A stretch of 64,000 nt of DNA from Trichoplax sp. H2. Lineage: Eukaryota. The notes under the pieces are model-generated. The model was not told where the DNA came from, did not search any database, and worked only from the letters and a program-made list of their open reading frames with translations. Positions 20,264 to 60,606 of this stretch are shown here, piece after piece. The first letter of the stretch is position 1, and the number at the start of each line of letters is the position of its first letter. The stretch is taken from assembly GCA_003344405.1 (NCBI GenBank), contig NOWV01000013.1:186001-250000 (forward strand). Direction: 5' to 3'. The position numbers and the translations under genes were made by a program.

Positions 20264-23200
20264 ATGTCTAGCACTGTCAAGAAAAGAAAAATAGCTCCCA
20301 TATCGTTTAGCGAAAAGGTGGCAAAGAAAGCCTCACTTGACAATGATGGCTGGAATAGAATTTTCCATAATCCAAAGCTACTACTAATTGCTTTGATTGC
20401 TTTCCGAGCAGTCAATGCATGCTGTATACAAACTTCTTATGTTCCTGATGAATACTGGCAGAGTTTAGAAGTTGCACACTATCATACGTTTGGATATCCA
20501 AGAAGTATTCCATCGTTGAATTAGAGCTTTTAATGCTTATGTCTTCGCAGTAATATACATTTTTGCTAGAGACACAGTTACTCTCGAAAAAGTTATCCAT
20601 TCAAGTAATAAGTACATTACTGGATAGGGTGCTTGGGTCCGGTGCCATAATTTAGTGAATAAATTTAAAATTGCACCATCCTTTGTAAGGGTTATAGTAA
20701 AGATAACGTAGTACTTAATGAGTTAAAATTTTTATTCCTTAACTTGTCTTACTTACGGTTATTTATCTTGGGAATGGACGGAGCGTATACGTGGATTTTC
20801 GTATCCGATGCTATTTTCCTTTTTATATGAATTATTAGCCTTTCTTAACATCGACCAAGGGTTCATTATGGTGAGTGTGATGTAGGTTTAGAAAATTTTT
20901 TGTGTATATTGTGATGTTGCATGTACCAATAACTACAATTTAAATTCGTTGAGACCATGTACTTTAGTTTATCGATTGGTTTTACATGTAATGTGTTATT
21001 TACTGTGAGTGCCATTAATAATATAATTTGACATTGCTTACCAACAGATATATTCACCACGCCTTTTACAATCAATATTCGCCGCTGTGGGTGACTTACA
21101 CATTTACAAACTGGCGGAAATATTTTTTGATAATAGTGCAGCTCGATGGACTGTATCCTATAGAACTATTTCAAATTTAATATCATTCTAACTACATTAA
21201 ACCAGTCACAACGGTAATTTCTTTTACTCATTTATGAATAGCTATGTTGCTCTTTAATATCCTGGTTTAACTTTTACTGTATCACGCGAACTCTAACCAA
21301 TTCCTTGGAAACTATAATTACCATTATTGGGTTCTGTTATTGGCCATGGCCTTGGAAAAACGATAAAGAGTAATGATGATTTATTGCAGTTTAAAAACCA
21401 ATATATTAATTATCTGTATAATGATTATAGGAGTCCTAGTTGTAAAATAGCTCTATCGTTCGCTGCCATTGCTTTCATCGTTAGGCCAACTTCAGCAATA
21501 ATATGGTTGCCGTTGTGTATATGGCATATGATATGGCATGCTAAAAACATAAGTAAATTTTTAATTGTGGACGTTATACCCATTGCGTAAGTTTATCTAT
21601 ATTCTTTTATCCTACTTAATAATATTAGTTTCCTAAATTTTAACCACATGAAATGCATATACTCAAAATTATATTTGGAAAACGATTCTAGCTCGATCTT
21701 TCTCTGCTTGTCATTAATTATTGATTACATATTCTACAAGCAGGTTCGTGACATCATATGGTTAATTTTTGGAGATAACTAATCGTATTTTGTTTCCTCT
21801 AATAGCTGCTAATTGGCAGCATTGTGAATACCTCCAATAAATTTATCATTTGTTTTTTGGCAGCTTGTGTTTGTTCAATACAACTTCTTGTATTACAACG
21901 TCTTTCAAAATATTGGGAAATTCTATGGCAGCAACCCCTGGCACTGGTAACAGTCATATTTCGCAGTGATTGTTAACATTGCTTTCTTATTGCATGTACT
22001 CTATGGTTCAAAGCATGTTGGCAAAACAAAATTACTTTATTCTTACATTTTAGGTATTTCAGCCAAGGCTTTTTTGTGGTTGTCGGAACGTTAACAATCC
22101 CTTTCATTGGCGGAGTTTTAAAATCTGGCGTTCGTCAACGTTTTCTAATTTGGATTATATTGTGGGATATCCTCATACATAGGTATTCAAACTCATAACA
22201 ACTTTAGGATTTCGAAAATCTTTAATTTATAATCTGTTCATCGTTGCTGTTTCTACTTAATTTCAAAAAATGTTCCGTTAATAGCTTGCGTTGAAAATAA
22301 ACTCTTGTTTTGCAGTTGTCTCAGCCACAAAGAATTTCGATTTATTCTTTCAATTCTACCGTTTGTACTTTGTTTTTGTGGTAAGTTCCGAATCAATATA
22401 GTACTTACTGTGCATCAATTGCTTGATACCTCAATGAAAATCTGCATGCAAAGTAAAAAATTAAGCTATGCTTGATACAGTAGATTTACCACGGTACTGT
22501 ACACTGATCTATTATATAATAATTATCATCTATAGGATCATATTTGAGCATTATGTGGAAAGTTAAAGACGCGACTGTAACACGCAATCGGCATTCATTT
22601 TGGTGGTTTTTTACATTCTTGTTAACAACAAACATCGCTGCAGCGGCATATACAAGTCGTATTCATCAAAAAGGCACAATAGATGCTATTCATCACATTC
22701 GAAGCATAGGCGAGGTATTCCATGTACTTAGACTAAGCAAATAAATTGTATAATCTATATACTCTATAACTATATGTATTCATATTGAGGCTTACTATTT
22801 TAATATTTTGTAAATATGCAACAGAGACATAACACTGATAGATTTTCCGTAATGTTTTTAATGCCTTGCCACTCTACACCGTTCTATTGGTAAGTAAATG
22901 GCATGTCAATTATCAGGGACTAATTTAAAGACTGCGCAAAAATTAATTTTTAGCGAGTTGGATGTATACGTCAGATTTTTAGTTATTAATAAGATGTTAA
23001 CTGTTCTTAATAAAATAATCACTTTCTTTCAGCTATATTCATAAAAAGATCGAGCTATCGTTCTTAACTTGTCTTCCAAGGTATAATTACAATTGTATTC
23101 TGGTTCTCGTCTTTTTTAATTTATAGTATTCTAGAGAAATCTGATTTAAATGTGCTATATTTAATATTAGTAATAGACCTGGATATATTGATGAGGCTGA

Positions 23201-23638
23201 TCGCTTCTTTTTGGAACCTACATCTTGGCTTAATCGAAAGTTTAATAGCCCTGACACGAACAATGTAGTTCCTCCGAATTGCCTTGTATTTTTTGATAAC
23301 TTAGTTACTGTAAGCTTGAAGATGTGTTATTTGAATTGTTATATAGCAATATGTACTTCAAACCTTGACATCCAATAAGCTAGTCGATTGAGAAATAACG
23401 AACAGTGACAGAAAATTCGAATTACTGATTTATTGCTATCTCTAATTCCAGGTCATACAAACATTTTTAGACAAATATCATTATAAAAAGGTCTGTATTT
23501 TTGTTATGCTTCAATGAAGTATGATGTTACTATCAATCTCTGATTTTCAAACTTCTTATACAGAACAAAAGTTTTTTCCACACCCATTTTCCTGAAGGAA
23601 GGGTAGGCTCAAACGTCATCATACATTGTTTAGAATGA
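20264..23638 (+). CDS. PIGB: GPI mannosyltransferase 3 (PIG-B/GPI10), multi-exon
   Basis: Motifs [105 protein letters not shown]. First exons 20264-20493, 20753-20870, 21048-21152, 21242-21368; stop TGA 23636-23638. Confidence 0.95.
20494..20752 (+). other. U12-type AT-AC intron in PIGB
   Basis: Donor ATATCCAAG, branch site TTCCTTAAC at 20735-20743, ends ...TCTTAC. Splicing restores [10 protein letters not shown]. Confidence 0.88.
21153..21241 (+). other. Probable U12-type GT-AG intron in PIGB
   Basis: Donor GTATCCTAT, branch-like TTTCTTTTAC about 14 nt before the AG, no polypyrimidine tract. Joins [13 protein letters not shown] in frame. Confidence 0.7.
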
Positions 23639-27326: not shown

Positions 27327-29155
27327 TTAATTGTTGGATATTGATAGAGGCCTTCTGAATAGCAAAACGTGTGGTTCTGTAAATGATAAAGTGTTTTTGA
27401 TTAATACAATTTGGTATAACCGAAAGAGTTGGAAATAATAGTAATCAAATATATGCAATACGATTTCCAGTTAATATGGCCATGATATTGCTAATGTACA
27501 GTACACAACTGGACAGTACATACATGTGGGTTAAAGGTTATTTTACCGCAAGGTATGTTCATAGTTAATAGTCATAATAATTTTAATGTATCCAATTTTG
27601 TTATGGGTCACAAAACTTTTCTGGTGATATAATATGTTTTACTTTCATCTGTTCAATTTGATCATGTCTTACCATCGCTGAAATTGTATCTGGTATCGTA
27701 ATCTTTTCTTTCTTTTATTTGTAGTGCACATATACTATAACTATATCGTAGTCCAAATTCTATCTTGCAACCGTATAAATCAATAAAATTCAATTCATGT
27801 AATAAAGCTGCAACTGCACTACTGTGATACCACTTTTGTAATATGCACATACTGCATTGAAGAAAAGCGCTAAACTAAGCAAGGAGATTACTATACACAA
27901 TGTACCTGATATGATACTATCGTTTGTTATTTAGTTCAAGATAAAATGATAAAGATACAATATTAGTCTAGTCCAAATACTTTACCTGGGCCATGTTTCA
28001 TATAATGAATCCAGCCCTTGGATTGCTGAACACCAATACCCCGCCATTCATCTTCAGTCATTAAATGATCCTTGGGTACTTTCTTTGCAATATCCTTTGG
28101 CAGGATAACATGTCTATAAAAGATATACATATCGCTAATTGAGAAAGTAGTCTATTATACTTTACAACAAGTCAAGTACTTAAGACGTTTAGTAAGATAC
28201 GTTCAAGTTATAAGTTGAATTAGTTGATAAGTGAAAGGTGACTATTGGAGTAAGGATGATGAAACTATTGAGTTAGTTCTCTAGGGTAGGTATCGCTTGA
28301 GTCTTTTATAGTTGTGGCAAGTTGAAACGTAATCCGTTGCACAACAAGTAAAAACTCGCGATAAGGATTAGGCGGTCGACTGTGTTTAAAAGTGTTATTT
28401 TAGAATCGGTCGGTAAGTGAACAAGTTAGCATTCAAGTATTGCACACCAAGTCAAAAATTAGTAGCAAAGATCAGTAAATACATTCAAGTTATTGATCCA
28501 TTCGCAAGTGAATAAGTGATGATTGAAGTCTATTTGCACAACAAGTCAAAAGTAGCGAGAAAAGATTAATGGATACGTTGAAGTTAGAATCAGCAGACAA
28601 GCGAAAAAGTGGCTATTCAAGTGCTATATTGCCCAAGCTGCACCACGATCGAGCACGATACGAATTAGAACTAGAATCAGTGAAAAAGTAATTCCTCATT
28701 GCAAATCTCCAACTACTAAGACTATAAGAGTAGCCATCGATTGGAAATCAAAACAAATCTTCCCTATTAGCAAGTATACTACCACTATTAAGGAGATCAA
28801 ATTGACGGTGCAACTTTGTTCAGTTTATTCAAATAAAGTTTGGATCCAAGGGTAGAGAGAGAGAGAGAATTAATTGCTCGCCATCTGCAGGCAATGGCGA
28901 CTCAATCCAAATCTCATCTGCTGAACCGTCATACAGTGAGATTGACTTGCAGAGGGTCAACTATCGCTTGACGCAAGTGAATTTGTTCAACTGCTCTACC
29001 GTCACATGCAATCACGATTGTCATCATTACAAGCGTCATCCTTTCTGGACAGGTGAATTGCAATTTGCAACTGATTGACAACATTTTCCTCACCTGTATT
29101 CGAAATTTTCGTCAAAGTATTTATCCGAGTAGATTACGTTCTTGTAAGAAGTCAT
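27327..29155 (-). CDS. CKS1: Cyclin-dependent kinase regulatory subunit (Cks1/Suc1), 3 exons
   Basis: Exons 29155-29094 ([21 protein letters not shown]), 28113-27986 ([42 protein letters not shown]), 27376-27327 ([16 protein letters not shown]). Absent from the ORF track because the exons are short. Confidence 0.97.
28160..28690. repeat. Degenerate ~95-100 bp repeats in CKS1 intron 1
   Basis: ttgcacaacaagtcaaaa...gatacgttcaagtta...aagtgaa recurs near 28165, 28338, 28440 and 28534. Confidence 0.6.
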
Positions 29156-34573: not shown

Positions 34574-36430
34574 CTAATATCGGACAATATTACGCTTGGA
34601 TGAAAAGCCAATCCAAATTAATGCAACAAAATACATTGATAAAATAACGATGAAGATGTATCTAACGTAGAAAGGTCGGGCTACAGTACATCGGCCATTG
34701 CTGTAAATGACAGAATATTTAATTTAGTCGAATTTCCTTCACTAAAAGAATGAAATCATGTAAATGCAAATGTATACAACTTGCCTTGGACTACTTGCAG
34801 CGGGATAAATTAATAAAAATTTGACCTTTAAGCAATCGTTATCCTGAACTATCACATATTTTTCAGTACCACTCCTACGTCACACAGTAAGCAGCAATCA
34901 CAATTTACATTTAATACTTGACTAAATCTTTTGATGTATAATTTACAAATAAAATAACTCTAAATAGTCTCCACCAAATATAAACAGCAATTACTTATTT
35001 TGATTTGCAAGAATTCGAGGATGCTTTATAACTTCACAAACAGCAACACATGAGATAGATTTGGCAATCATGCTTTTATCCCATGTAGAACCGGTCGTAG
35101 AGAAATTTAAGGAAACATCCAAATCAGTTGATAAATAAGTTCCTTCACCAAATAATGATCTCTATCGCATAAGAATGGCAACTTTATTAATATTGATAGA
35201 CAGTAGGATCAGCGATATCTCATACAAAAAGTTACAGTTCTTTTTTTACTTCTGATCGTGACTCGTATACAAATTGCAATTTCAACTTACATTATTTAAA
35301 TGTGATAAAAGACCAACATGTAGAATGGAGAAGAAATTTTCGACACCACTGCCATGAAATCCATAAAAAGAACCATACTGGCTCTTAAGTTCGTCAAAAC
35401 GACTGCTAGAACTTTTTCCTTTATAGATTATATCAAAAATTAAGCTAGGGCGGGTACCATTACGAAAGCCAGTTGCGGTTAGAAGCTCTTCCAACTGGGC
35501 AGTACGAATATACGAGCCAATAAGAAAAGAATTATACGTATATAATTATCAAATTATTAACGGCTAAGACATAGATAACATCGCCCAGTTATATATATCA
35601 TGCACTGCTAGTAAGGACTGCTTATAGAGAATTCTTCTTGATTTACGGTAAATATTGTACAGTATTTTGGTAAGGATATGACTAACCTTAGTATTGGGTA
35701 AGATCTTTAGGTGTACGGAAGTGCTATCTTCAACTAGTAGCCATTCTAAAAGCTCAATAGAATGAGCCGATAGACGAGTTTCTTCCTGAAGTAGTTCGCC
35801 AATGCCTGGGATTTGACGAAATGATTCTCTCTACATTTATGAAGATGTAGTATACGTACTTTAGTTTAGCAAATGTTGATCTTACATTTTACAAATGTCA
35901 TAACATGAACGAGGCAGAAAGTTACTAGTGGATAATGCGATTTTGTTGATAATTAATTATTATCTTACGTACTCTACTTGTATTGAAGTGATTAACTTAT
36001 CCTTTTATACGAATTTGCAGGTCATTAAATCTTAAGAGGTAAAGTATTGTTGTACGTGGTAAGCGATCACTATTAATGTCATCAGTGTCTCTGACTTCAA
36101 ATCAGCCTATTGAGATTTGCTACCCCATTCAAGGCTTGAAATAATTTGTTGCGACTACAATATTTTGCGTTGATTAAAACTAATTTTATTGTTGTAATAA
36201 CTGCAAGTATTTAAATGTAGTCTGTAACAGGATAAGTAGTAGAGTGATTACAATTCCGTACTTACCAATGAATCGATCTGTTTCTCCCCAAACCTGATGT
36301 AAGTTTGTGGGAAAGGACGTAAAACGCTGTCAAAACGAAAACTTCTTAATGCTGCACTAAAAAGACTGATCTTGAGGTCAGTAGCCAATCTGTCTCTCTC
36401 AATGGTCAAGCGTAACTTAGTCCTCAACAT
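34574..36430 (-). CDS. PARP16: Mono-ADP-ribosyltransferase PARP16 (tail-anchored ER ART), 6 exons
   Basis: Exons 36430-36266 (DLKISLFSAALRSFRFDSVLRPFP), 35830-35687, 35494-35291 (GFHGSGVENFFSILHVGL), 35161-34995 (SLFGEGTYLSTDL...VAVCEVI), 34874-34785 (EKYVIVQDNDCLKVKFLLIY), 34700-34574 (C-terminal TM YIFIVILSMYFVALIWIGF). Start codon uncertain. Confidence 0.92.
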
Positions 36431-37785
36431 GTCGTCGTTATTGCATTTGTAGATCAAATTCAAGGAGACTACTAGGTTTGTTGATCATACTCCAAATATA
36501 TCGATGGAGGAGATTTACAAGGGCATTTCTCTCTCTTTTCTCTCCTACACTGATTGAAATGCTTTTAATCTACAACGATACCTTTCAATGCTCTCTAAAT
36601 CCTCTAGATAATTGTAATTTGTTAACAAACGCGATAAAAGAACTAGACTGAGCTGATAGTATTTGACAGATCGATTAAATTGCTCGTTCAATATTATTAC
36701 TGTGTTTACTACTGTAGTTGGACACTGATAAAATCTCTTTTCCTCCACTATGATACTTGTGAGTCTGCTAAGTGCTAAATAATACTGGAGATCATCTGTT
36801 CACACAACTGATAAAAACAGCCAAACTTATCGAAAATACAGTAGAGCAGTTTTAGAAGGTTAGATAATAATATTGATTAGCTAATTGAAGCTGATAAGAT
36901 TTCTCCTTATCTATTTCTACCCTATATTAAGCACTTTGAAATCAACTCAGTACTCAAGATAATCAGTTAATACAATCGATCAAAACAACTAGAGTGAAGT
37001 TATCAGAGATAGAGTAATTTCGATAATTTCAGATAGCATTTGCTGTGGAATTGTCAATAAATCATCATTGAAAGTTGTTGCTGAATAGCATCGTCAGGCA
37101 GTCCGTTCAGTAAAAGCTTTGCAAACATCTAGTCTGCTAGGACAATCTTTTATATATATTGTACGTATACTGAAACAAAAGTATCACGAGCAGGGTGTAG
37201 GACTCGTTTTGAGTAGAAGTGTTACTATTCTGGCACAGAGCAGACTGAGACTGATAGAATGCTATAGCAAAAACTCTCATCACCAAGTTTTACTATGAGC
37301 ATATTGCTGGCCTAAAGTATATACCATACTCTAGTCCAGTTGTGCACTGGCACTGGATGTTACCACATCATGATATGACATTATATTGCTACAATTCATA
37401 CCAGGCACTTTGCATTTTTAATTTCTTTCCCTTGTTCATACACTACGATAGAAAAGGTGTTTACTTTATACTTTATTATACTGTATAGAGCCATTTGCTA
37501 CTAGTAACTCCGGAGCAAAGGTTGGTCGAGCTAACTCCTAATACAACTCGTGTTTCCAATTACAGCATTTTCTATAGTATGCTTTTACGATTATAGCACT
37601 GTTCTATACTGTACAGAACTATAGAGTCTATAGACACATTGGTAGGCTACACCACTCCACTATTGTTGCTGTACTAGCCGGCGAGTAAAGCTGTTAACAC
37701 ATCTTGTCTACCATCAAAATCGAGGAGCAATTCGTTTATTGACTATAATTTATCTGCTATATCATCAGCCAAGCACGCAAAAGCA

Positions 37786-38001
37786 ATGATTCGAGCTCCA
37801 ATAAGGTTAAACTTTGGTCAGGTCATTTTTGCTATGGTCCTTGGTGTAGTCAGTGGAATCTACATCTTTAAACCGATGCTTCAACAGCAGCTTCTGAATG
37901 AATTAACTGAAAAAGAATTAAACCAAAGTCATCAAGATCACAAAAACAACGAGCCCAAGCAATCAGCACTGACTGATGTAAAACAAGATGAGGAAGTGTA
38001 A
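37786..38001 (+). CDS. PIGBOS1: PIGBOS1-like microprotein (71 aa, one TM)
   Basis: RLNFGQVIFAMVLGVVSGIYIFKPML closely matches the recalled human PIGBOS1 N-terminus (RLTFAQLLFATVLGIAGGVYIFQPVF), followed by a charged Q/E/K tail. Confidence 0.85.
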   Translation: MIRAPIRLNFGQVIFAMVLGVVSGIYIFKPMLQQQLLNELTEKELNQSHQDHKNNEPKQSALTDVKQDEEV

Positions 38002-39745
38002 TAGCAATGATTTCAGTAGATGAGATGCGGTTAACAAATGTTAAGGATATTATTGCTTTTAAATGCTTATTGATTGAGCACATAACGCAAATATTGTACA
38101 GCCGGCTGCATGGAAAAGAAGAAACTAACAAAGTAGATTATGGTGTGCTTCTGCCTTCCACTGTGCAAAATTGTACGGATCTTTAAGTAATGGTCAATAC
38201 ATACCTAGCATGATGTGTGCTTAACCAGCTAATGGCAACTGACATTTTAATCCAGACAAGGAAGAAATTAAGATTTTAAAGATTATAGAATATTATAGTG
38301 TAATATACGAGTCTAAATATCTGCAGCAAAAACAAACGTGCGTGCAGCATAAAACACTGGTGTGCAGTCGAGATTGCATCAAGACCAAAGCTTGATTAAT
38401 CATCTATTTGCAAGTACAGTATGGGGCTATACGGAGCACTTGTAATAACAGACTAATTTTAAGTATTTTACCTTACGTAATATACAGTATATCTTCAACT
38501 TTTCATGCTAGTGGTTAGCGATTCCATTCCTACTTATTTAACTAGTCTTTGTCATTGCATAATCATAATAACTGCCTACTCAATGCCATGAACTTCTAGA
38601 TCTCTAAGTCCATGTCAATGAATAGTAATGCGTAGTGCCGTAATTTTATATTCCGTGTCAATAGAAGATTTTAAATTGGAGCTAAAGCAATTTTGGAAAT
38701 TATGACATCTCAGTTTAGAAAATCAAGCTTGACCTTAATATGTGTCTCTGATGGATCGTGATTACGATCTCGCTTGTCTTGGCATTCGATATTCATAGTT
38801 TTACTAGTTTTGGCAATCTTGTTATCAATGTTATTTTATTCAGATCTCACTTTACTTCAATATACATTTCGTTATTTATTATGGGATGCAAAAGGTCTAA
38901 TTATTCTCTTGCAGTGTCAACCTGCTCGAAATTGTCCTACCGTACGAGCATATTGTATGTTGCAGTGTGAAATGCAGTCATATGCATTAGATGGTATGTT
39001 ATCATAGCCATTGCATAAAGCATAGTGTCGAATAGATGATAGAACTATACTTACTATCAGCGTTGTTCACAATTAAATGTTTAATGTTATGCTAAAATGG
39101 CCTAATCATAACATAATGTTATAAAATCTTATATATAGTGTACAAACATGAACTACTAGATGCTAGTCCACGGTACAAGTCAGTACATTGTAGGCCATAA
39201 CAAACGCCATATAGCTACAGGACGCAGGCAGAAGGATATAAGAATGAATTATGGATAATAATGATGTGCTGGTATTGGAAAGCAAATAAAATTTGATGAT
39301 AAAAGATTTTATTAATTATACACCATGATATAATAAATGAATAAAAACGTGTATTATCATGCAATCTTGACATTTGCTTACAACAAATTGTGCTGGAGAT
39401 TGCAAATTATGGTTATTATACAGTCATTTTGAAGATGTTGGGCTTAAAATGCAAGTGCAAGTAAGGTATCCTGGATGAGATACAAGATATTCTTACCTGA
39501 ACCTTATCACCTAAACTTTTTAAAATTATAAAATGATCAAAGCCCGTATTTCAATTACAGTTAACCTTATACGGAAGACAAAGAGCCATAGTTTCATAGT
39601 GATGTACCAAGACAAAGTAAATCATGACCTAAACCTTACATATATTTAAGACATTACAGTGCTATCAAGAGTTAAGGGAATACTTTAATATTATCGAAGA
39701 TATAATAAGCAAATCCTTCAAAGTAAAACAATTGCAAGCTATCTC

Positions 39746-40632
39746 TCAGCCAATTAATAGTAGAATATGATTTCTTCGTTTGTCGATCAGAATACAGTAT
39801 ATTCTCATGCTTGTTAACCACAGCGAATTCATTCGAAACCAATAATTGGATAACTTAGAGCTCTTTTGAACCGCATCATTCTTATTTATCTTTTCATCTA
39901 CTACCTGCTTCTTTTCATACATCCGAGCTAACCGAGCGTTATCAGTATGTCTATTGGCAGAAATAAAGTTGTAGATGGTTCTGGTTGAATATTGTTTTTT
40001 TATTTTTCTTTTCATCTGTTAACACATTTGTAGTATTTTTACTCTTTCCCATTAGCCTACCCAACCTAAATGTATCCTCATACCCATTCCTTTTTCAGGA
40101 AATGGATTCTCTATTCCTTTTGAATCTACTTGCGTCTCATCTCCTTTCTTTCTACCCACTACTCAACTCGCCGTTTTCTTGCTCTTTTCGGATATCCATA
40201 CCAATCAAGATTGATCGGTATGTTTCTTTTCAGTTAAAAAATCCCTAGATAATGCGTCTTTCTTGTGGATCTTATCTAGATCGATCTTCTTTCACTTTTA
40301 CCAGTATGTCTATTTTCAGAGGTTGAATGCTTCAATAATTGGATATCCTTTTGGATCGCCTCTATCGCTTGTCCTTCCATTTATTTATTACTCAGCTCCA
40401 TGGACTACTAGATGCACCTAGTAGTCCATGCCAGTTTATTATATTCTTACTCTTTCCAGACATCCATGTTAACAAGGTCTTTGCAGCGTATCCAGTTGTC
40501 CGAAATCCGCTATTAGAACATTCGGAGTTATTTTTGGTTCCTTTTTTGTTGTTTTCCTTTCTGCCTGTTACCTAATTCATAAAATTCTTGCTTGTTCCAG
40601 TTATCTACTCTAGCCAAGACTTATTAACACAT
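39746..40632 (-). pseudogene. Decayed 3' half of copy A
   Basis: Homologous to ~44190-45095 but with TGG->TAG stops at 40605-40607 and 40572-40574 plus further disruptions. Confidence 0.85.
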
Positions 40633-40825
40633 CTACGGATTGCAGTAAAATGAATCGACATTCTACTGTATTATATCAATGTAGCCATACGTATAAAATT
40701 ATACATTATAATATAGATGTAATAACAGATGCATTTATTCTGTTCCGTCAGACAGTAGCATCCTCTTCTATATCTCTGTAGCCTTCTACCTGTATACTGT
40801 GTTCTCATTTTCAGATAGACCTGCT

Positions 40826-42909
40826 TCATATTCTCCTATCACCCTTGTCATTTGTCGTTGCCGTTTGTTTCTTAAAAAGTTTCTTACACAGATTACGCTG
40901 TATACTATGTACAGAACCTTCAACTTTAGCCTGAATAAGTAGTTTACTTACCTCTTCAGTTAGCTTAGATAATTCATTGTTCATGAATTCAACCCACTGT
41001 TGAGTGGCAAGGTCGTATTTAGTCTTATTGTAATAAGTTGTGTCTGTAAATCCTTGCAAAAGTGCGCTGCACTTGTTTAATGGGTCATGGCTAACTTCAT
41101 GTCTTAGACATTCCAAGTATTTTTTTGTATTAGAAATTAACTCAGATAAATGTTTCTGTAAAAGTAACTTACTAGCAACACCATTATCACTCGGTTTGTC
41201 CATGTTATGGGTGTCGTTTTCGCATTTTAATGACGTCTTATTAGCAACAATATGCTTAGAAGATCCTTGAAGCATAGGAAATACAATCATGATATATATA
41301 CCAAATAAGCAGACAATCACAGCTACAATAATGTAGCTTGAAGGTGCTAGTAACATTTTCTTGTGCTCAGCGGTAACGACTTTTTTATTTTGATTGATTG
41401 ATTCAGTTAGAGCAGACTTGCTAGAAACAATACCACTCGATTCCGTTATTTCGCTATCATACAAAAAATCAGAACCTGCCTCCTTCACATCCGGTACGAT
41501 CTGGTTACTTAATGTTATATCATTATCGGTAGTTAATTCTACAGCCTCGTCTGGTTGAACGATAATCGTAGACCCATTCTCGGATTTATTATTAGAAATT
41601 GCAAAAGCTTCGATTTGACGGCATTGCATATCTTGGTCTACGTCGGCGAGGGTACCGCTATCCACTAAGCAATAACTACCTGCATCACTGATTATAGCGT
41701 TAGCTTTATTATCAGCGTCGAGTATAGTATTCATGATATCGCTGTTGAAAATATTGCGCCCATCTAAACTACTATGACTTTTCAAGATAATATAGTCACT
41801 TGTATCTAATGATGTATCCACGTCCGAATCAACTTGGCCCTAATAAAAATTAAAATTAGAATACTTAGCGTCATTATCGTTTAGTAATTTACACTATGTT
41901 TACACGTCAAAATCTAAAGTACAGTACATATACGCGTGTAGTTTAACACATAATCCGCAAAGTAACGGAGAAATGATCAGAGGGTTTTAAAATAAAACAG
42001 ACAAGCAATCATAACCACTGAAATTAGGAACGTGGCAAGCTCTTGTCAGCCAAAACTGAAGTAAAATTGATATCAAGATCAAAGTAATAATTAATTATTA
42101 TTGGAGATGATGATCAATCGCTGAATTTATTTGTAAGGCAATTTTAACTATCAATCGGATGAGAGAGATATCGCTATCCATGATAATAATGTACTGTACA
42201 ATGTACGCGTCCTTTTTAACTGATCATAATCATCAATAAGTTTTAACATATAAAATGACTAGCTAGAAAGAGAAGCAATTTGATTTCTCCAAGTCATTGC
42301 TACTGTTTACTGACAAGCGGATCAGACGGTAATATCATCCACGATATACATACAGTAGGTCATTTTCTGGCATTGAGATTTTCCCTTGACTAATATCATT
42401 ACATTTAGCCAGAGGAGGATCTCACCATTGCAATACCAAACATGTCCTTGTTACAGATCATGAACGTGCTATGGTACAAAATAATTCAGCTAGAAAGGAG
42501 AAGTGATTTGATCTTTTCATTCCTGACAAACAGATCGCATTATTATGACTGTGGTCACTGTGATGACTGTAAATAACATTTCTACTATACTTAAGAAGGA
42601 AAACTTAACGACTGATTCCTAATAACCTGACAATGAAACTACGTACCGTCATAATTATTAATATACTAATAGAACCCACGCTCGTTATACTTCGAGTATT
42701 GCATTATATCCGCTGTCATGAAAACTAATTTGATCTCGCCGCGCGCCATGGCTGACAAACAGAGTACATACCATAAAATTGTATCAATTCTTATTAATTA
42801 CAATCGGTAAAAAGTAAAGGTTTAAAGCAGTTAATCTCGATAATAGGACAATAAACTACATAAAGTAGATCTTTACGGAATCATTTCGATCTCCAGTTCT
42901 ATCCTTCAT
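40826..42909 (-). CDS. Single-pass membrane protein, truncated copy A (~348 aa); CCPG1/PBXIP1-like candidate
   Basis: Exon 42909-42877 (MKDRTGDRNDS|gtaaag) plus exon 41839-40826. Acidic N-terminus with DTSDYIIL, TM YIIVAVIVCLFGIYIMIVFPML, helical luminal part. The last ~30 aa come from sequence absent in copy B. Confidence 0.6.
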
Positions 42910-44179
42910 TATGCCTAGGTAATCGACTACCACCCGCATGGTTAATTCAAAAAGTATATAATCATTATTCAACTATACTGGATTGGAAACTGGACGTTAG
43001 GCGTGAAATTAGGTTTTACGCTTCTTTACAACATCAATAAACCCTAGCAAAACCTACAAAATTGTTGCCGTCTTCCTTTAGGATCCTCAGATCGGAGGTA
43101 GCATTCATGATCGATAATTCACAACACACGCCGTTTTAAAATTGATAGCAAATTTTCCTACAATCAAGTCCTGCACGAAATAATAGATGATGATGTGTGT
43201 GTAGAGTGTAAAAACGGATGCAAACACTTACCAGATATGCGCATATTGCCAATATAAATAAAAGCCGTAATTAATATTAATTACCATAACATATATAGTT
43301 AACAATAGCTGCACGGCGTTACTAGTGCGAAAAATAAATACATAATTAAAAGTACTATACTATGGAATAACTTTTTAAATATCGAGGCTTTGGCCATTCT
43401 AAAGTCGACGATGACCTTCCACATTGGCAGTTTCACACATTAAAGTAATTTTTTAATTGTTAATTTCTATCTGCTTCGATTTTATAGCCCTCTTATACGA
43501 AACCTTCTTTTCTTTTATAATAATATAAAAAATAAAGAATTAATTAAAAAGCCCAACCGGTACTGGTACTTTACTTTGATTCTATAGCTGTCACATACAG
43601 GTTAATTTTTCGTCACTAATAGAAGATAAATAAATGATGGTCCAAACTTGATCTTTAAGCTGAATACTAAACTAAAAACTTATAAGCAAATAAAATTTGA
43701 TAATAAAAGATTTTATTATACATCACGATGTAATAAGTCAATGAAAATATAAAATGTATATTATCATGCAATCTTGACATTTATTTATAACAAATCGTGC
43801 TAGAGATTGCAAATTATGGTTACTATACAGTCATTTTGAAGATGTTAGGCTGAAAATATAAGTGCAAATATCAGGTATCCCCGATGCGATACAGGATACT
43901 ATTACCTAAACCTTATCACCTTAATATTTTAAATTTATAAAATGATCAAAATATCAATCGCTGCAGCCCGCTGTATTTCAATTACAGTTAACCTTTATAC
44001 GGAAGATAAAGAGCCATACGATTCGCAAAAATGTACCATAACAAAGTAAATCATTACCTAAACCTTACATATACAGTATTGAAGACATTGCAATGCTAAC
44101 AAGACTTAAGGGAATACTTTAATATTATTGGAGGTGTAATAAACAAATCCTTCAAAGTAAAACTATTGCAAGCTATTTG

Positions 44180-47171
44180 TCAGCCGCGTCGAAATATTTT
44201 TTTGCTGCCTTCTTTGGCCTTATTGAAGATCCGATTAATAGAAGAATATGCTTTCTTCATTTGTCGATTATAATATATTCCCATGTTTCTTAACCACAGT
44301 GAATTCCTGGGAAACCAATGGTTGGATAACGTTGAGCTCTTTTGAGCCGCACCATTCTTGTCCGTCTTTTCATCTACTACCCACTTCTTCTCAAGTATCT
44401 GTGCTAGCCGAGCTTCGTCAGTATGTCCATTTGTAGGAAATGAAGTTTTAGGCGATTTTGGCTCTGATTTCTCTTGAATATTGTTTTTATTAGTTTTCTT
44501 TTCATCTGTTAATTTAGTTTTCTTTTCATCTGTTAATTCAGTTTTCTTTTCATCTGTTAATATATTTGTAGTATCTTTACTCTTTCCCATTAGCCAACTC
44601 AACCTAAACTTATCGGCATACCCCATTCCCTTCTTTCTACCCATTACCCAGCTTGTCGCTTTCTTGCTTTTTTTGGATATCCATGTCAACCAGGATTGAG
44701 AAGTGTGTTTATTTTCAGCTAAAAAATCCCTAGATGATTCGTCCTTCTTATGTATCTTATCTGCATCGATCTTCCTTTCACTTTTATCAGCAGGTCTATT
44801 TTCAGGGGTGGAATGCTTCGATAATTGGCTATCTTTTTGAATTGTCTCTTTATAGCTAGATGGACTACTAGATGCACCTAGTGGTCCACGCCAGTTTATA
44901 ATATTCTTACTCTTTTCAGATATCCATGTTAACCAGGTCTTTGTAGCGGATCCAGTTCTCCGCAACCAGCTGTTGTTATTAGGTTCTGTGTTATTTTTGA
45001 TTCCATTTTTGTTGTTTTCCTTTGTACCTGTTACCCAACTCATAAAATTCTTGCTTGTTCCAGTTATCCATTCTAGCCAAGTCTTATCAGCACATTTTCT
45101 TTCAACTTTAGCCTGAATAAGTAGTTTGTTTACTCCTTTAGTTAGTTTAGATAATTCATTCTCTATGGAATCAATCCACTTTTGAGTGGCAAGGTTGTAT
45201 TTAGTCTTATTGTAATAATTTGTGTCTGCAAATTTTTGCAATAGTGCGTTGCACTTGTTTAATGGGTCATTGCCAACTTCATGCCTTAGACATTCCACGT
45301 ATTCATTTATATTATAGATTAACACAGAAAAATGTTTCTGTAAGAATACCTCATTAGTAACACAAATATCGCTCGGTTTTTCCACGTTGTGGGTGTCGTT
45401 TTCGCATTTTAATGACATCTCATTGGCAATAATATGCTTAGAAGATCCTTGAAACATAGGAAACATAATCATCATGCTAATCAAGCAGACAATCACAGCA
45501 ATAATGGTGTAGCTTGAAGGTGCTAGTAACTCTTTCTTGCACCCAATAGTAACGACTTTTTTATTTTGATTGATTGATTCAATTAGGGCAGACTTGTTAG
45601 GAATAATGCCACTCGGTTCCGTCATTTCGCTTTCAGACAAAAAGTTAGAATCTGCCTCCATCACATCCGGTACAATCTGGTTAACTGATGTTGTATCATT
45701 ATCGGTAGTTAATTCTACAGCCTCGTCTGCCTGAGCAATAATCGTAGACTCATTTTTCTCAGATTTATTATCAGAATTTGAGGAAGCTTCGATTTGACTG
45801 CATTGCGTATCTTGGTCTACATCGGTGAGGGTGCTGTCATCCACTAAGCAATAACTATCTGCATCACTGATTATAGCTTTATCGTCAGTATTGAGTAAAA
45901 AATGAGTGATGTCGCTACTGGAAATGTTAGGGCTATCTAAGCTACTTTGCGTGTTTAAAACAAAATAGCCACTTATATCTGATGATGAGTCCACGTCCGA
46001 ATCAATTGGATCCTAATAAGATCAAAATTTAAAAAAGAGAACTTAGCGTCATTATCGATTAGTAATTTACGCTACGTTTACATATAGAAATCTAAAAGTG
46101 CAACACGTATACGCGCATAGTTGAACACCGAAGGACAAACAACATCGATAACGCTGAGCAAAATACCGATAATCCCCAAACGAACAGGGAAATGATCAGA
46201 GGATTTTTAAAATAAAGCAGACAAACAATCATAACCACTGAAACTAGAAACATGGCAAGCTCTTGTCAGCCGAAACTGAAGTAAAATTGATATCCTGATC
46301 AAAATAATAATTAATTGTTACAGGAGATGATGATCAATTGCTGATCTTATTCGTAGGGTAATTTTAACTATCAATCAGATAAGAGGGGTATCATTATCCA
46401 TTGCAATAGTTAAAATATAATATACTGTACAATGTGCATGTCCTTTTTAACTGATCATCAATAAGTTTAAGTTTTAATCTACAAAATGACTAGTTAAAAA
46501 GAGAACTAATTTGATTCCTTGATATCATTGGTGCTGTCTGCTGACAAGCGGATCAGACGGTAGCATCATCTACAATATAATGTACATTTATTATACGTAT
46601 AGTAGGCATTTCCTGGAATTGAGATTTTCCCTCGACTATATAATTATAATTAACCTAAGAAGAAGGATCCCACCATCCATTGCAACGTCATACGAGTCCA
46701 TGTCCTTCTTGCAGATCATGAACATGCTATCGTATAAAATGAGTCTGCTAGAAAGGAGAAGTGATTCGATCTTTCTATTCCTGACAAGCGAAGTGCATTA
46801 CTACTACTGTAGTCACTGTGATGGCTGTCGAAAGTATTTCTACAATACGTAGAAAGGAAAGACTTAACGATGGATTCGCAATAATCTGATAGTAAATTAC
46901 GTACCGTAAATTATAATATACTAGTAGAACCAATGCTCGTTATACTTTGCGTACTGCATTATATCTGCTTGTGACAAAAATTAATTTAATCTCTTCGCGC
47001 CAGGACTAACAAGGAGAGTTGCATACAAATATATTAATTCTTAATTGCTAGTTACTGTAGTTACAATCGGTAAAAATCAAAGATTTAAACAGTTAATTTC
47101 AATAATATGACAATAAACTATATAACGTAGATCTTTATGGAATCATTTCGATCTCTAGTTCTATTCTTCAT
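44180..47171 (-). CDS. Single-pass membrane protein, full-length copy B (~620 aa); CCPG1/PBXIP1-like candidate
   Basis: Large open exon 46012-44180 behind a ttattag acceptor; likely first exon from ATG 47171. DSSSDISGYFVL LIR-like motif, one TM, Trp-rich amphipathic repeats, three 24-nt repeats (LTDEKKT) at ~44490-44565. Confidence 0.7.
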
Positions 47172-47712
47172 TTTGCCTACGCAATCGACTACCATCAGCA
47201 AGGTTAATCCCAAATGTATGCAATCATTTTTCAACTGTACCGCATTTGGAATTGAATATTAGGTGTTAAACTAGTTTTTTGACTTCTTTACAACATCAAT
47301 CAATCCTAATAAAACTTACAAAATTGTTGTCATCTTCCTTTAGCCCCTTCACATCGTGAGTAACACTCATGATGGATAATTTACAACATCAATCGCTTTA
47401 AAATTGGTAGCAAAAATTTCAACAATCAAGTTTTGTACGAAACAAAATAATAGATGATGACTGTCTACTAGGTGAAAAAATGATGCAATGTAAATAAATA
47501 CCGCAATTAATAATAAACGAGTATATAATTAATTAACTGAAGAGACCAACCGGTAGTTTACTTCCTGTACAGTCTACTACTGTGGATCATAAAACACTCG
47601 ACTTTTCAGTGCATACTATATACTGTATGTGGACTTTGCAGGCATAGTTGTACAATGCACTGCACATTTACATATGGGGCAGAACGATGACGTATCTATA
47701 GTAGTTTGGGGA

Positions 47713-59564: not shown

Positions 59565-60252
59565 ATGGACTATCTCAAAATGATACTGTCGTACTCGCCT
59601 AAGCGATGGCGGATTTCGAGCTTCTGCAGACATGCCAAATTGCCTATGCATCATTAATTCATTAATTAATTAATGCACACTGGCAAGGACTTGATACATG
59701 GAGTAGTTAATAGCCTAGTGCTTGCTAGTTTTCCATACAGAACTAACTCTAAGCCCGATTCTACCTGCACGAACAGCAGGCCTAAATTCATTATGGACTG
59801 TCAAAATGATACTGTCGTACTCGCCTAAACGATGGCGGATTTCGAGCTTCTGCAGACATGCCAAATTGCCTATGCATCATTAATTCATTCATTAATTAAT
59901 GCACACTGGCAAGGACTTGATACATGGAGTAGTTAATAGCCTAGTGCTTGCTAGTTTTTCATACAGAACTAACTCTAAGCCCGATTCTACCTGCACGAAC
60001 GGCAGGCCTAAATTCATAATGGACTATCTCAAAATGATACTGTCGTACTCGCCTAAGCGATGGCAGATATCGAGCTTCTGCAGACATGCCAAATTGCTAA
60101 TGCATCATTAATTCATTAATTAATTAATGCACACTGGCAAGGACTTGATACATTGAGTAGTCAATAACCTAGTGCTTGCTAGTTTTCCATACAGAACTAA
60201 CTCTAAGCCCGATTCTACCTGCACGAACGGCAGGCCTAAATTCATTCTGGAC
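59565..60252. repeat. Near-identical tandem array, 226-228 bp x3
   Basis: Units start atggac at 59565, 59793 and 60019 and end at ~60252; few substitutions between units. Confidence 0.95.
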
Positions 60253-60606
60253 GTCGTTTGCAGAAGTTTGGACTGCATCAGATCAATTTTATTTTGAGCA
60301 GTTTGTACTTGGGACAGTTATCATCTCTTAGACCTAGCAATTGATGTCAAGGTAGAGAATGCATAGTAATGCATAGGTATCGAATAATATCGCAAATCCT
60401 AGTAAAGGCATCAGACGACAACAGATTATATTAGATAATTTACAAATTACAAGTAGAGTGAATCACCAATCAATATATTCCACTTTCGACGCTGCTGTCA
60501 AGCGACTGTCCATGATTTTTTATCTTTATGCAACAATCTGTCTTATGGCATGAAATCTGTTAGCATTATCTTGGCTTCTCGAATCCATTACACGACGAAT
60601 ATCGCT

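What the first reader, a model, noticed from the sequence alone, without database searches (positions are those of the whole stretch)
44180..47171. Candidate ancient CCPG1/PBXIP1-type ER-phagy receptor hidden in an 'orphan' ORF
Seen: type II topology with an acidic cytosolic N-terminus, one TM and a long luminal helical region. An N-terminal LIR-like core follows Ser/Asp runs (DSSSDISG-YFVL; copy A DTSD-YIIL), and a second motif (ISDA[D/G]S-YCLV-D) is kept in both copies. Known: vertebrate CCPG1 starts with an S/D-rich stretch then a WTVI LIR, has FIP200-interacting motifs and the same topology, and lies next to PIGB. Inference: a highly diverged CCPG1/PBXIP1 ortholog, which would extend this ER-phagy receptor far deeper into animal evolution.
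Basis: partly seen in the sequence, partly recalled or inferred. Interest (0 to 1): 0.85.

Follow-up and report, generated by a model that had tools for sequence, protein, structure and literature searches.

The report
Placozoan CCPG1-like membrane protein beside PIGB
A real, expressed Trichoplax gene encodes a membrane protein built like the vertebrate ER-recycling receptor CCPG1 and sits in the same gene neighbourhood, so it may be a very old, unrecognisably diverged relative, although no direct sequence similarity could be shown.

Summary
The window is Trichoplax sp. H2. The finding is gene TrispH2_002128, which encodes 627 aa on the minus strand. RNA contigs show two exons. The true first exon is 47319-47370, not 47171.

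Confirmed features:
- an acidic, disordered N-terminus (net charge -27);
- one TM segment, residues 183-205;
- a basic, Trp-rich C-terminal part carrying a conserved NKT sequon and Cys pair;
- the YFVL and SYCLVD motifs.

A tandem paralogue, copy A, is transcribed but truncated to 354 aa.

Evidence against detectable homology:
- A HMMER profile search of 1.84 billion proteins found only 4 placozoan-type proteins.
- Pfam and PDB gave nothing.
- Published human LIR/FIR strings match no better than shuffles.

Evidence for relatedness:
- The locus holds PIGB, a PIGBOS1-like ORF, PARP16 and CKS. These are neighbours of CCPG1, or of its paralogue PBXIP1, in vertebrates.
- A protein-language-model search ranks CCPG1/PBXIP1 clusters 2, 3 and 11. 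This is a lead only.

Verdict: probably (about 0.55) a diverged pro-orthologue of CCPG1/PBXIP1. Its receptor function is inferred and untested.

The parts
47319..47370 (-). Copy B (TrispH2_002128) exon 1 coding part. ATG at 47370. Encodes MSVTHDVKGLKEDDNNF plus the first base of codon 18. The RNA contig reaches 47405 (5'UTR).
   Evidence: joint 46011/47319 in X5 and X12; X8 loose end; in-frame 627-aa ORF identical in length to P0002.
46012..47318 (-). Copy B intron, 1307 nt, GT..AG.
44180..46011 (-). Copy B exon 2 coding part, residues 18-627 plus the stop at 44180-44182. The 3'UTR runs to about 43722 in RNA contigs.
45956..45991 (-). Motif 1, D25-L36: DSSSDISGYFVL. An acidic/Ser run followed by the LIR-type core YFVL. 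Copy A has DTSDYIIL. Absent from the P0004 model.
45893..45916 (-). Motif 2, S50-L57: SDITHFLL (copy A: SDIMNTIL). An S-D-I start as in the published human FIR strings, but the spacing to the second hydrophobic residue is one longer than the consensus.
   Evidence: Consensus from PMC7946963.
45839..45868 (-). Motif 3, S66-D75: SDADSYCLVD. It fits both the LIR core and the FIR core consensus (S/T, aromatic, x, x, V, then acidic). It is the only cytosolic motif kept in copy B, copy A and P0004 (T-FCVV-D).
   Evidence: Consensus from PMC7946963.
45449..45517 (-). Single transmembrane segment, residues 183-205 (SSYTIIAVIVCLISMMIMFPMFQ).
   Evidence: Kyte-Doolittle 19-residue maximum 2.58 at residue 186; the only hydrophobic peak. 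(helix 183-205).
45074..45448 (-). Proximal luminal domain, residues 206-330. This is the best-conserved part: two invariant Cys (C258, C271), invariant YNKT with the N-glycosylation sequon N285-K-T at 45203-45211, and three predicted helices.
44564..45085 (-). Distal luminal region with repeated Trp-rich basic motifs ([ST]WLxW[IM]SxKSKxxxxW; starts at residues 329, 377 and 458, with weaker copies at about 366 and 487). The same repeats occur in P0004.
44490..44561 (-). 24-bp x 3 tandem repeat (97% matches) encoding LTDEKKT[EKN] x 3. Present only in copy B.
44186..44302 (-). C-terminal strongly amphipathic helix, residues 588-626. Hydrophobic moment 0.73-0.79, against a protein mean of 0.23 (sd 0.14). 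Conserved in P0004 and in the fragment P0005.
43057..43108 (-). Copy A exon 1 coding part (MNATSDLRILKEDGNNF).
   Evidence: (joint 41838/43057 in X5 and X12).
40826..41838 (-). Copy A exon 2. With exon 1 it gives a 354-aa product comprising the cytosolic region, the TM segment and the proximal luminal domain. 68% identical to copy B.
39797..40664 (-). Decayed remnant of copy A's distal luminal region. It lies in three frames and has in-frame stops, four of them where copy B has Trp.
37786..38001 (+). PIGBOS1-like microprotein ORF (71 aa). Synteny anchor.
   Evidence: Pfam PF23670, E 1.2e-13, 51.4 bits against a cut-off of 27..
34994..36484 (-). PARP16/ARTD15-type gene (ARTD15_N plus PARP catalytic exons).
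   Evidence: ARTD15_N E 1.6e-18; PARP fragments E 9.7e-5 and 5e-4, both below the cut-off.
27966..28151 (-). CKS (cyclin-dependent kinase regulatory subunit) exon. Synteny anchor to the PBXIP1 neighbourhood.
   Evidence: PF01111, E 3.4e-23.
20264..23635 (+). PIGB (GPI mannosyltransferase 3). Synteny anchor.
   Evidence: Glyco_transf_22. (P0006, named GPI mannosyltransferase 3 [Trichoplax sp. H2] by its source). (mapped over residues 1-511).

Best explanation
TrispH2_002128 (copy B) is the placozoan descendant of the single ancestral gene that gave vertebrate CCPG1 and PBXIP1. It has diverged beyond sequence recognition. It is a type II membrane protein of the ER. A roughly 180-residue acidic, disordered N-terminal region faces the cytosol. 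A basic, glycosylated, Cys- and Trp-containing C-terminal region faces the lumen.

Inferred mechanism:
- The conserved, probably phospho-regulated motif [ST]-[YF]-C-[LV]-V-D (S70-D75) docks ATG8-family proteins and/or the FIP200/ATG11 claw. The upstream acidic YFVL and SDI-type motifs of the Trichoplax copies may assist.
- The luminal three-helix domain, the Trp-rich amphipathic repeats and the C-terminal amphipathic helix hold luminal cargo or the luminal membrane leaflet.
- The marked piece of ER is thereby delivered to autophagosomes.

Shown here: gene structure, expression, topology features, motif conservation and neighbourhood. Inferred: common descent with CCPG1/PBXIP1. More weakly inferred: ER residence, ATG8/FIP200 binding and receptor function.

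Copy A is a transcribed, C-terminally truncated duplicate.
For: 1. Neighbourhood. Within 27 kb of the two copies lie PIGB, a PIGBOS1-like ORF (E 1.2e-13), PARP16/ARTD15 and CKS.
- Human 15q21.3 reads RAB27A, PIGBOS1, PIGB, CCPG1, PIERCE2, DNAAF4, PYGO1 (PMC11972509, passage).
- Chicken chr25 lists PBXIP1, PYGO2, SHC1, CKS1B in a row (PMC12649552, table passage).
- In cattle the same four genes lie within +/-250 kb of one SNP (PMC3680339).
- Anchors of both vertebrate paralogous regions therefore flank the candidate.

2. Architecture matches the published description of CCPG1, which has a cytosolic NTD 1-230, a TM segment and a luminal region 241-757. Here the parts are 1-182, 183-205 and 206-627, with net charge -27 and +30.

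3. ESM Atlas feature search of the whole protein:
- CCPG1 clusters at ranks 2 and 3 (score 0.79, 174 of 256 features).
- PBXIP1 at rank 11.
- All ten best hits that carry a family belong to this family set.

4. A motif fitting the published LIR and FIR core consensus (PMC7946963) is kept in 3 of 3 homologues despite 37% overall identity.

5. The family evolves very fast: 37% identity to P0004, and dN/dS of 0.67 between the copies. Failure of sequence searches is therefore expected even for a true orthologue.

6. No competing family was found.
Against: - No sequence homology was shown. The HMMER profile against 1,835,955,588 representatives gave 4 hits at E <= 0.001. These were P0002, P0003, P0004 and P0005, all of this family.
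- Word-seeded searches gave 3 of 7999 and 2 of 8000 scored candidates, all of the same family.
- Local Pfam gave 0 families at E <= 10.
- The Atlas scores are below 0.9, so by the tool's own calibration they are leads only. A third of shuffled proteins also get a coherent family set.
- The luminal 422 residues alone gave no usable Atlas hit. The resemblance may therefore be composition and architecture.
- Best ungapped matches of the published human strings CGWTVI, SHEGSDIEMLNS and SDDSDIVTLE to the cytosolic region are reached by 452, 2184 and 2139 of 3000 shuffles, and are not collinear.
- The number of LIR cores is not significant.
- The gene order differs from human: PIGBOS1 is not head-to-head with PIGB, and ARMC6-like, PARP16 and CKS intervene.
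- No ERSE/UPRE-type site lies near either promoter.
- dN/dS of 0.67 indicates weak constraint.
Confidence: 0.55

Rival explanations
1. A placozoan-restricted, fast-evolving type II membrane protein with no common ancestry with CCPG1/PBXIP1. Its place near PIGB/PIGBOS1/CKS is coincidence, and the LIR/FIR-like motifs are chance products of an acidic, Ser-rich disordered region. Its role would be some other luminal or secretory-pathway function, for example a luminal scaffold or membrane-binding protein using its amphipathic Trp-rich repeats.
For: - Only this family is found in 1.84 billion representatives.
- Motif counts and matches to the human strings are within shuffle expectation.
- The luminal part gives no Atlas hit.
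- Weak constraint between the copies.
- The literature calls CCPG1 vertebrate-specific (PMC5791736, passage; PMC6971691, passage). PSI-BLAST with the human luminal regions found nothing (PMC10092646, discussion passage).
Against: - Four independent neighbours match the vertebrate CCPG1 and PBXIP1 regions (papers).
- The same rare architecture and charge pattern is present.
- CCPG1/PBXIP1 clusters dominate the family-bearing Atlas hits.
- The SYCLVD/TFCVVD island is conserved where the rest of the cytosolic region is not.
Confidence: 0.3
2. A convergent functional analogue. It is unrelated by descent, but it is an autophagy receptor of the ER or nuclear envelope built on the same plan as yeast Atg39: an N-terminal Atg8 motif plus an Atg11/FIP200 motif, one TM segment, and luminal amphipathic helices.
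For: - PMC6971691 describes Atg39 as a structural counterpart of CCPG1 with an N-terminal AIM and Atg11BR.
- The protein here has a conserved LIR/FIR-type motif and strongly amphipathic luminal helices.
- That Atg39's luminal helices bind membrane is recalled, not read here.
Against: Convergence does not explain the neighbourhood. No binding data exist.
Confidence: 0.1
3. A decaying or non-functional gene pair (transcribed pseudogenes) whose features carry no function.
For: Copy A has lost its distal half to frameshifts and stops. dN/dS between the copies is 0.67.
Against: - Copy B keeps an intact 627-codon frame, is spliced and is present in RNA contigs of 3 of 3 RNA-labelled runs laid.
- A 545-aa homologue at 37% identity keeps the TM segment, the luminal domain, the repeats and the C-terminal helix.
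- TM dN/dS is 0.25.
Confidence: 0.05

Closest known systems
[quoted passage not shown]
   Same: - Type II plan: a long acidic, disordered cytosolic N-terminus, one TM segment and a longer luminal region.
- LIR-type and FIR-type motifs in the N-terminal third.
- Lies in a neighbourhood with PIGB and PIGBOS1.
- CCPG1 clusters are among the nearest Atlas neighbours.
   Different: - No detectable sequence similarity.
- The aromatic residue is Tyr/Phe, not Trp.
- The best-conserved motif lies at residues 66-75, not at the extreme N-terminus.
- The luminal part carries Trp-rich basic repeats and gives no Atlas hit on its own.
- Shorter: 627 aa against 757 aa.
Vertebrate PBXIP1 (HPIP), the paralogue sharing Pfam CCPG1_C according to the Atlas annotation
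   Same: - Atlas rank 11.
- Its vertebrate neighbour CKS1B has a counterpart 12-16 kb from the candidate.
   Different: No sequence similarity shown. PBXIP1's own topology and function were not examined here.
Yeast Atg39 (perinuclear ER / nucleophagy receptor)
   Same: [quoted passage not shown] The protein here has amphipathic luminal helices.
   Different: No homology. Atg39 is fungal and much smaller. The comparison is of working plan only.
Other type II ER proteins with helical luminal parts, e.g. CLIMP-63/CKAP4 (recalled, not tested)
   Same: One TM segment, cytosolic N-terminus, long luminal helical region.
   Different: Their cytosolic parts are not acidic LIR/FIR-bearing regions. No hit to any such family in Pfam, PDB or HMMER searches.

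Membership tests
CCPG1/PBXIP1 | Sequence homology detectable with profile methods | tested here: not met
   The HMMER profile of 3 placozoan-type sequences against 1,835,955,588 representatives gave 4 hits at E <= 0.001, all of the query's own family. Word-seeded searches gave 3 of 7999 and 2 of 8000 scored candidates, also the same family. The test ran from the placozoan side only.
CCPG1/PBXIP1 | Match to Pfam CCPG1_N (PF27636) / CCPG1_C (PF27631) | not testable with these tools
   These accessions appear only in the Atlas annotation (Pfam 38.1). The local Pfam-A copy (24,736 models) returned 0 families at E <= 10, and I could not establish that it holds these two models. No CCPG1 sequence could be obtained for hhalign.
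CCPG1/PBXIP1 | Type II topology: acidic disordered cytosolic N-terminal region, one TM segment, luminal C-terminal region | tested here: met
   (charge -27 and +30, a single hydrophobic peak, K-rich N-side flank). (invariant NKT sequon and Cys pair on the C-side). (N-terminus without predicted structure). This is sequence-level prediction, not experiment.
CCPG1/PBXIP1 | N-terminal LIR that binds ATG8-family proteins | tested here: inconclusive
   LIR-type cores at Y33 (YFVL) and Y71 (YCLV) follow acidic/Ser runs, and Y71 is conserved in 3 of 3 homologues. The count is not above chance, and the human string CGWTVI matches no better than 452 of 3000 shuffles. Binding was not testable.
CCPG1/PBXIP1 | FIP200-interacting (FIR) motifs: acidic or phospho residue, bulky hydrophobic, x, x, L/I/V, preceded by acidic/Ser residues (PMC7946963) | tested here: inconclusive
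   S70-Y-C-L-V74 fits and is conserved. FIR-core counts equal shuffle expectation: 4 against 4.06. The two SDI motifs have off-consensus spacing. Binding was not testable.
CCPG1/PBXIP1 | Conserved luminal regions (A-D / CIR1-3 of PMC10092646) | tested here: inconclusive
   The Atlas search with residues 206-627 alone gave no usable hit. No CCPG1 sequence was available for alignment.
CCPG1/PBXIP1 | Genomic neighbourhood of the vertebrate genes (PIGB, PIGBOS1; PYGO, SHC, CKS) | tested here: met
   PIGB, PIGBOS1-like and CKS all lie in the window within 27 kb. Vertebrate orders come from papers. PYGO, SHC, RAB27A, DNAAF4 and PIERCE2 were not found among the ORFs examined, and small exons may have been missed.
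CCPG1/PBXIP1 | ER residence and UPR-inducible expression | not testable with these tools
   Only a crude scan for mammalian-type ERSE/UPRE strings (recalled consensus) was possible. None lies near either promoter, and counts are at chance.

The most novel reading that the evidence does not exclude
The CCPG1/PBXIP1 family, described in print as vertebrate-specific, already existed in the common ancestor of placozoans and bilaterians as an ER membrane receptor with LIR/FIR-type motifs. It has stayed for more than half a billion years in one neighbourhood with PIGB, the microprotein PIGBOS1 and PARP16, three other genes tied to the ER. Its 'orphan' status in placozoans and its 'vertebrate-specific' status in humans would then be two sides of one homology-detection failure.
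Probability: 0.5. Interest if true: 0.75.

Novelty: new variant of a known kind. Interest (0 to 1): 0.6.

Why it matters
CCPG1 is one of the few receptors known to couple ER-luminal cargo to the autophagy machinery. It is treated as a vertebrate invention (PMC5791736, PMC6971691). A placozoan counterpart would:
- push this type of selective ER-phagy to the base of animals;
- give a minimal, intron-poor model protein for finding which features are essential, namely one conserved LIR/FIR motif, a small Cys-containing luminal domain and amphipathic luminal repeats;
- provide a worked example of orthology recoverable only through synteny.

The locus also shows that the microprotein PIGBOS1 is ancient and remains linked to PIGB.

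Tried and rejected
- Whole-genome search: no genome is held for this window.
- Pfam on copy B: nothing. On copy A only two sub-threshold chance hits, crAss_THB (E 0.011) and AllH (E 0.053).
- PDB sequence search: 4 hits at E 0.25-2, all noise (antibody Fabs and OpaR).
- AF2 of the whole protein: pLDDT 32.9. AF2 of the proximal luminal domain: pLDDT 52.5, three helices. Both are too poor for a fold search, so none was run.
- Permissive word-seeded search to pull in CCPG1: max_evalue is capped at 10, and only the Trichoplax proteins returned.
- Atlas on the luminal part: no usable hit.
- Matching the published human LIR/FIR strings: not above shuffles (one search timed out and was rewritten).
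- ERSE/UPRE-type strings: none near the promoters, and counts at chance.
- Earlier findings of the scan: nothing relevant.
- RNA contigs do not cover copy A's decayed distal part. This is no evidence of absence.
- Rab-type G motifs in the six-frame translation: none.
- tRNA/Rfam scan of the high-depth spot at 39058-39103: nothing.
- Complex prediction was not used, because no ATG8 or FIP200 sequence could be obtained within the session.
- Literature: 0 papers hold both 'CCPG1' and 'Trichoplax'. A broader six-term search listed none with CCPG1 among its 12 rows. 'PARP16' plus '15q22' gave 0 papers, so PARP16's human position is recalled only.
Full report
**What is there**

The window is from Trichoplax sp. 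H2. The long open frame 44180-46012 on the minus strand is 100% identical to the 627-aa 'hypothetical protein TrispH2_002128'.

Contigs of three RNA-labelled runs were laid on 37400-47700:
- X5 and X12 join 46011 to 47319, skipping 1307 nt with GT..AG on the minus strand.
- X8 ends at 46012 with a 15-nt overhang that reads as the end of exon 1.
- X1 covers all 30 bins evenly like DNA and shows no joint.

The coding sequence is therefore 47370..47319 plus 46011..44180.

**Anatomy**
- Residues 1-182 have 37 acidic and 10 basic residues (net -27, pI 4.05), 23% Ser+Thr and no Trp. AF2 predicts no structure there.
- There is a single hydrophobic segment, 183-205. Its N-side flank is Lys-rich (KKVVTIGCKKE), which places the N-terminus in the cytosol by the positive-inside rule.
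- The remaining 422 residues have net charge +30 and carry 15 Trp. They hold five Cys, all in the first 120 residues.
- An N-K-T sequon and two Cys are invariant in all three homologues aligned, as expected for a luminal domain.
- AF2 is of low confidence (pLDDT 32.9 for the whole protein, 52.5 for residues 206-330). It draws three helices in the proximal domain and scattered helices beyond.
- The distal part holds repeated [ST]WLxW[IM]SxKSKxxxxW motifs.
- The C-terminal helix is very amphipathic, with a moment of 0.73-0.79 against a mean of 0.23. Both the repeats and the helix are kept in the distant homologue P0004.

**The paralogue**

A tandem copy A lies at 39797-43108.
- RNA contigs of X5 and X12 join 41838 to 43057. 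This gives a 354-aa product with the cytosolic region, the TM segment and the proximal luminal domain.
- The former distal region survives only as a remnant in three frames with in-frame stops. Four of these stops lie where copy B has Trp.
- The copies are 68% identical, with dN/dS of 0.67 overall and 0.25 in the TM segment.
- The T. adhaerens model TRIADDRAFT_54754 (P0003) is the orthologue of copy A.

**Motifs**

- The YCLVD motif is the only cytosolic one that also survives in P0004, as T-FCVV-D.
- It fits both the LIR core and the FIR core consensus published for FIP200-claw binders. That consensus is an acidic or phosphorylatable residue, a bulky hydrophobic, x, x, then L/I/V, preceded by acidic/Ser residues (PMC7946963, passages).

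Tests against chance were sobering:
- Copy B has 3 LIR cores where shuffles give 1.27; 572 of 5000 shuffles reach 3.
- It has 2 acidic LIRs against 0.29; 143 of 5000 shuffles reach 2.
- It has 4 FIR cores against 4.06.
- The published human strings CGWTVI, SHEGSDIEMLNS and SDDSDIVTLE (PMC7946963 and PMC6971691) find no better ungapped match in the cytosolic region than 452, 2184 and 2139 of 3000 shuffles. The best matches are also not collinear.

The motif evidence is therefore conservation of one island. It is not similarity to human CCPG1.

**Homology searches**
- Pfam gave nothing for copy B at E <= 10.
- The word-seeded search found 3 relatives among 7999 scored candidates. With the profile and E <= 10 it found 2 among 8000.
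- The exhaustive HMMER profile search of 1,835,955,588 representatives found 4 proteins at E <= 0.001: P0002, P0003, P0004 and a 72-aa fragment, P0005, matching the C-terminal helix.
- PDB sequences gave only noise.

No competing family appears, but no link to CCPG1 appears either. The family evolves fast: P0004 is only 37% identical. Non-detection is thus weak evidence against ancient orthology.

I could not obtain any CCPG1 or PBXIP1 sequence, or the Pfam CCPG1_N/CCPG1_C models, within the session. The decisive profile-profile test therefore remains open.

**Protein-language-model lead**

The ESM Atlas feature search with the whole protein gave the following:
- Rank 1 is an unnamed 'trichohyalin-like' arthropod cluster (score 0.80).
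- Ranks 2 and 3 are CCPG1 clusters (score 0.79, 174 of 256 features).
- Rank 11 is a PBXIP1 cluster (score 0.77).
- All ten best family-bearing hits are in this family set.

By the tool's own calibration, scores under 0.9 are leads only, and a third of shuffled proteins also get a coherent set. With residues 206-627 alone there was no usable hit. The signal may therefore reflect the overall plan and composition.

**Neighbourhood**

This is the strongest independent evidence. The window also holds:
- PIGB at 20264-23635, + strand (Glyco_transf_22; the source names P0006 GPI mannosyltransferase 3; mapped).
- A CKS exon at 27966-28151, - strand (E 3.4e-23).
- An ARM-repeat gene at 31.1-33 kb.
- PARP16/ARTD15 at about 34.9-36.5 kb, - strand (ARTD15_N E 1.6e-18).
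- A 71-codon PIGBOS1-like ORF at 37786-38001, + strand (PF23670, E 1.2e-13, above cut-off).
- Copies A and B.
- A CLC channel, a GT8 glycosyltransferase and a DUF167 gene.

The vertebrate gene orders come from papers:
- Human 15q21.3 is listed as RAB27A, PIGBOS1, PIGB, CCPG1, PIERCE2, DNAAF4, PYGO1, PRTG (PMC11972509, one passage).
- Chicken chromosome 25 lists PBXIP1, PYGO2, SHC1, CKS1B consecutively (PMC12649552, table passage).
- In cattle the same four genes lie within +/-250 kb of one SNP (PMC3680339).

PYGO1 lies near CCPG1 and PYGO2 lies beside PBXIP1. This fits two copies of one ancestral segment, which is my inference. The Trichoplax locus carries anchors of both copies.

From recall only, PARP16 is on human 15q22 and the human DUF167 protein is C15orf40. 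That would add chromosome-15 linkage. A search for 'PARP16' plus '15q22' found no paper.

The order is not identical to human, and PYGO, SHC, RAB27A, DNAAF4 and PIERCE2 were not seen among the ORFs I examined.

**Weighing**
- For common descent: a rare architecture, sitting among four anchor genes of the vertebrate CCPG1/PBXIP1 regions, with no other family claiming it and a supportive protein-language-model lead.
- Against: no sequence-level signal of any kind, motifs within chance, weak constraint, and rearranged order.

I put common descent at about 0.55-0.6. Receptor function given descent is perhaps 0.6.

The mechanism is inferred. The S/T-[YF]-C-[LV]-V-D island docks ATG8 and/or the FIP200 claw. 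The luminal domain, repeats and amphipathic helix hold cargo or membrane.

**Novelty**

[quoted passage not shown] PSI-BLAST with its luminal regions found nothing (PMC10092646, discussion passage). No paper in the library holds both 'CCPG1' and 'Trichoplax'.

Because sequence membership was tested and not met, I do not file the protein as a CCPG1 family member. I file it as a CCPG1-like variant and candidate pro-orthologue.

Noticed in passing
37786-38001 (+): A 71-codon ORF matches Pfam PIGBOS1-like above its cut-off (E 1.2e-13). The UPR-linked mitochondrial microprotein PIGBOS1 therefore appears to be ancient in animals and is still linked to PIGB in a placozoan. Here it lies 14 kb downstream of PIGB, not head-to-head with it. 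[quoted passage not shown]
   Followed up: partly
34994-36484 (-): A PARP16/ARTD15 orthologue (ARTD15_N E 1.6e-18) sits directly beside the PIGBOS1-like ORF and the CCPG1-like pair. Three genes tied to the ER or ER stress lie in a row. The functional link is recalled, not tested.
   Followed up: partly
39797-40664 (-): The decayed distal half of copy A has in-frame stops, four of them exactly where copy B has Trp codons, plus frameshifts. This fits neutral decay after truncation. The T. adhaerens gene model (P0003) splices part of this remnant back in, and it has an N-terminus unlike the RNA-supported exon 1 seen here, so that model may be wrong.
   Followed up: partly
44490-44561 (-): A 24-bp unit repeated 3.0 times (97% matches) encodes LTDEKKT[EKN] x 3 in copy B only. 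It is a recent in-frame expansion.
   Followed up: no
39058-39103: A short stretch (about 46 bp) where all four runs show raised depth and many contigs with differing loose ends on both sides. It behaves like a short dispersed repeat. No tRNA or Rfam family matches it.
   Followed up: partly
59670-60330 (+): Two near-identical ORF pairs (LMHTGKDLIHGVVNSLVLASF... and CLLVFHTELTLSPILPARTAGLNS...) recur about 226 bp apart. This is a local tandem duplication or repeat element between the GT8 gene and the DUF167 gene.
   Followed up: no
8311-10152 (+): A run of Kazal/follistatin-type exons (Kazal_2 E 3.5e-13 for 9424-9723), i.e. a follistatin-like secreted protein gene.
   Followed up: no
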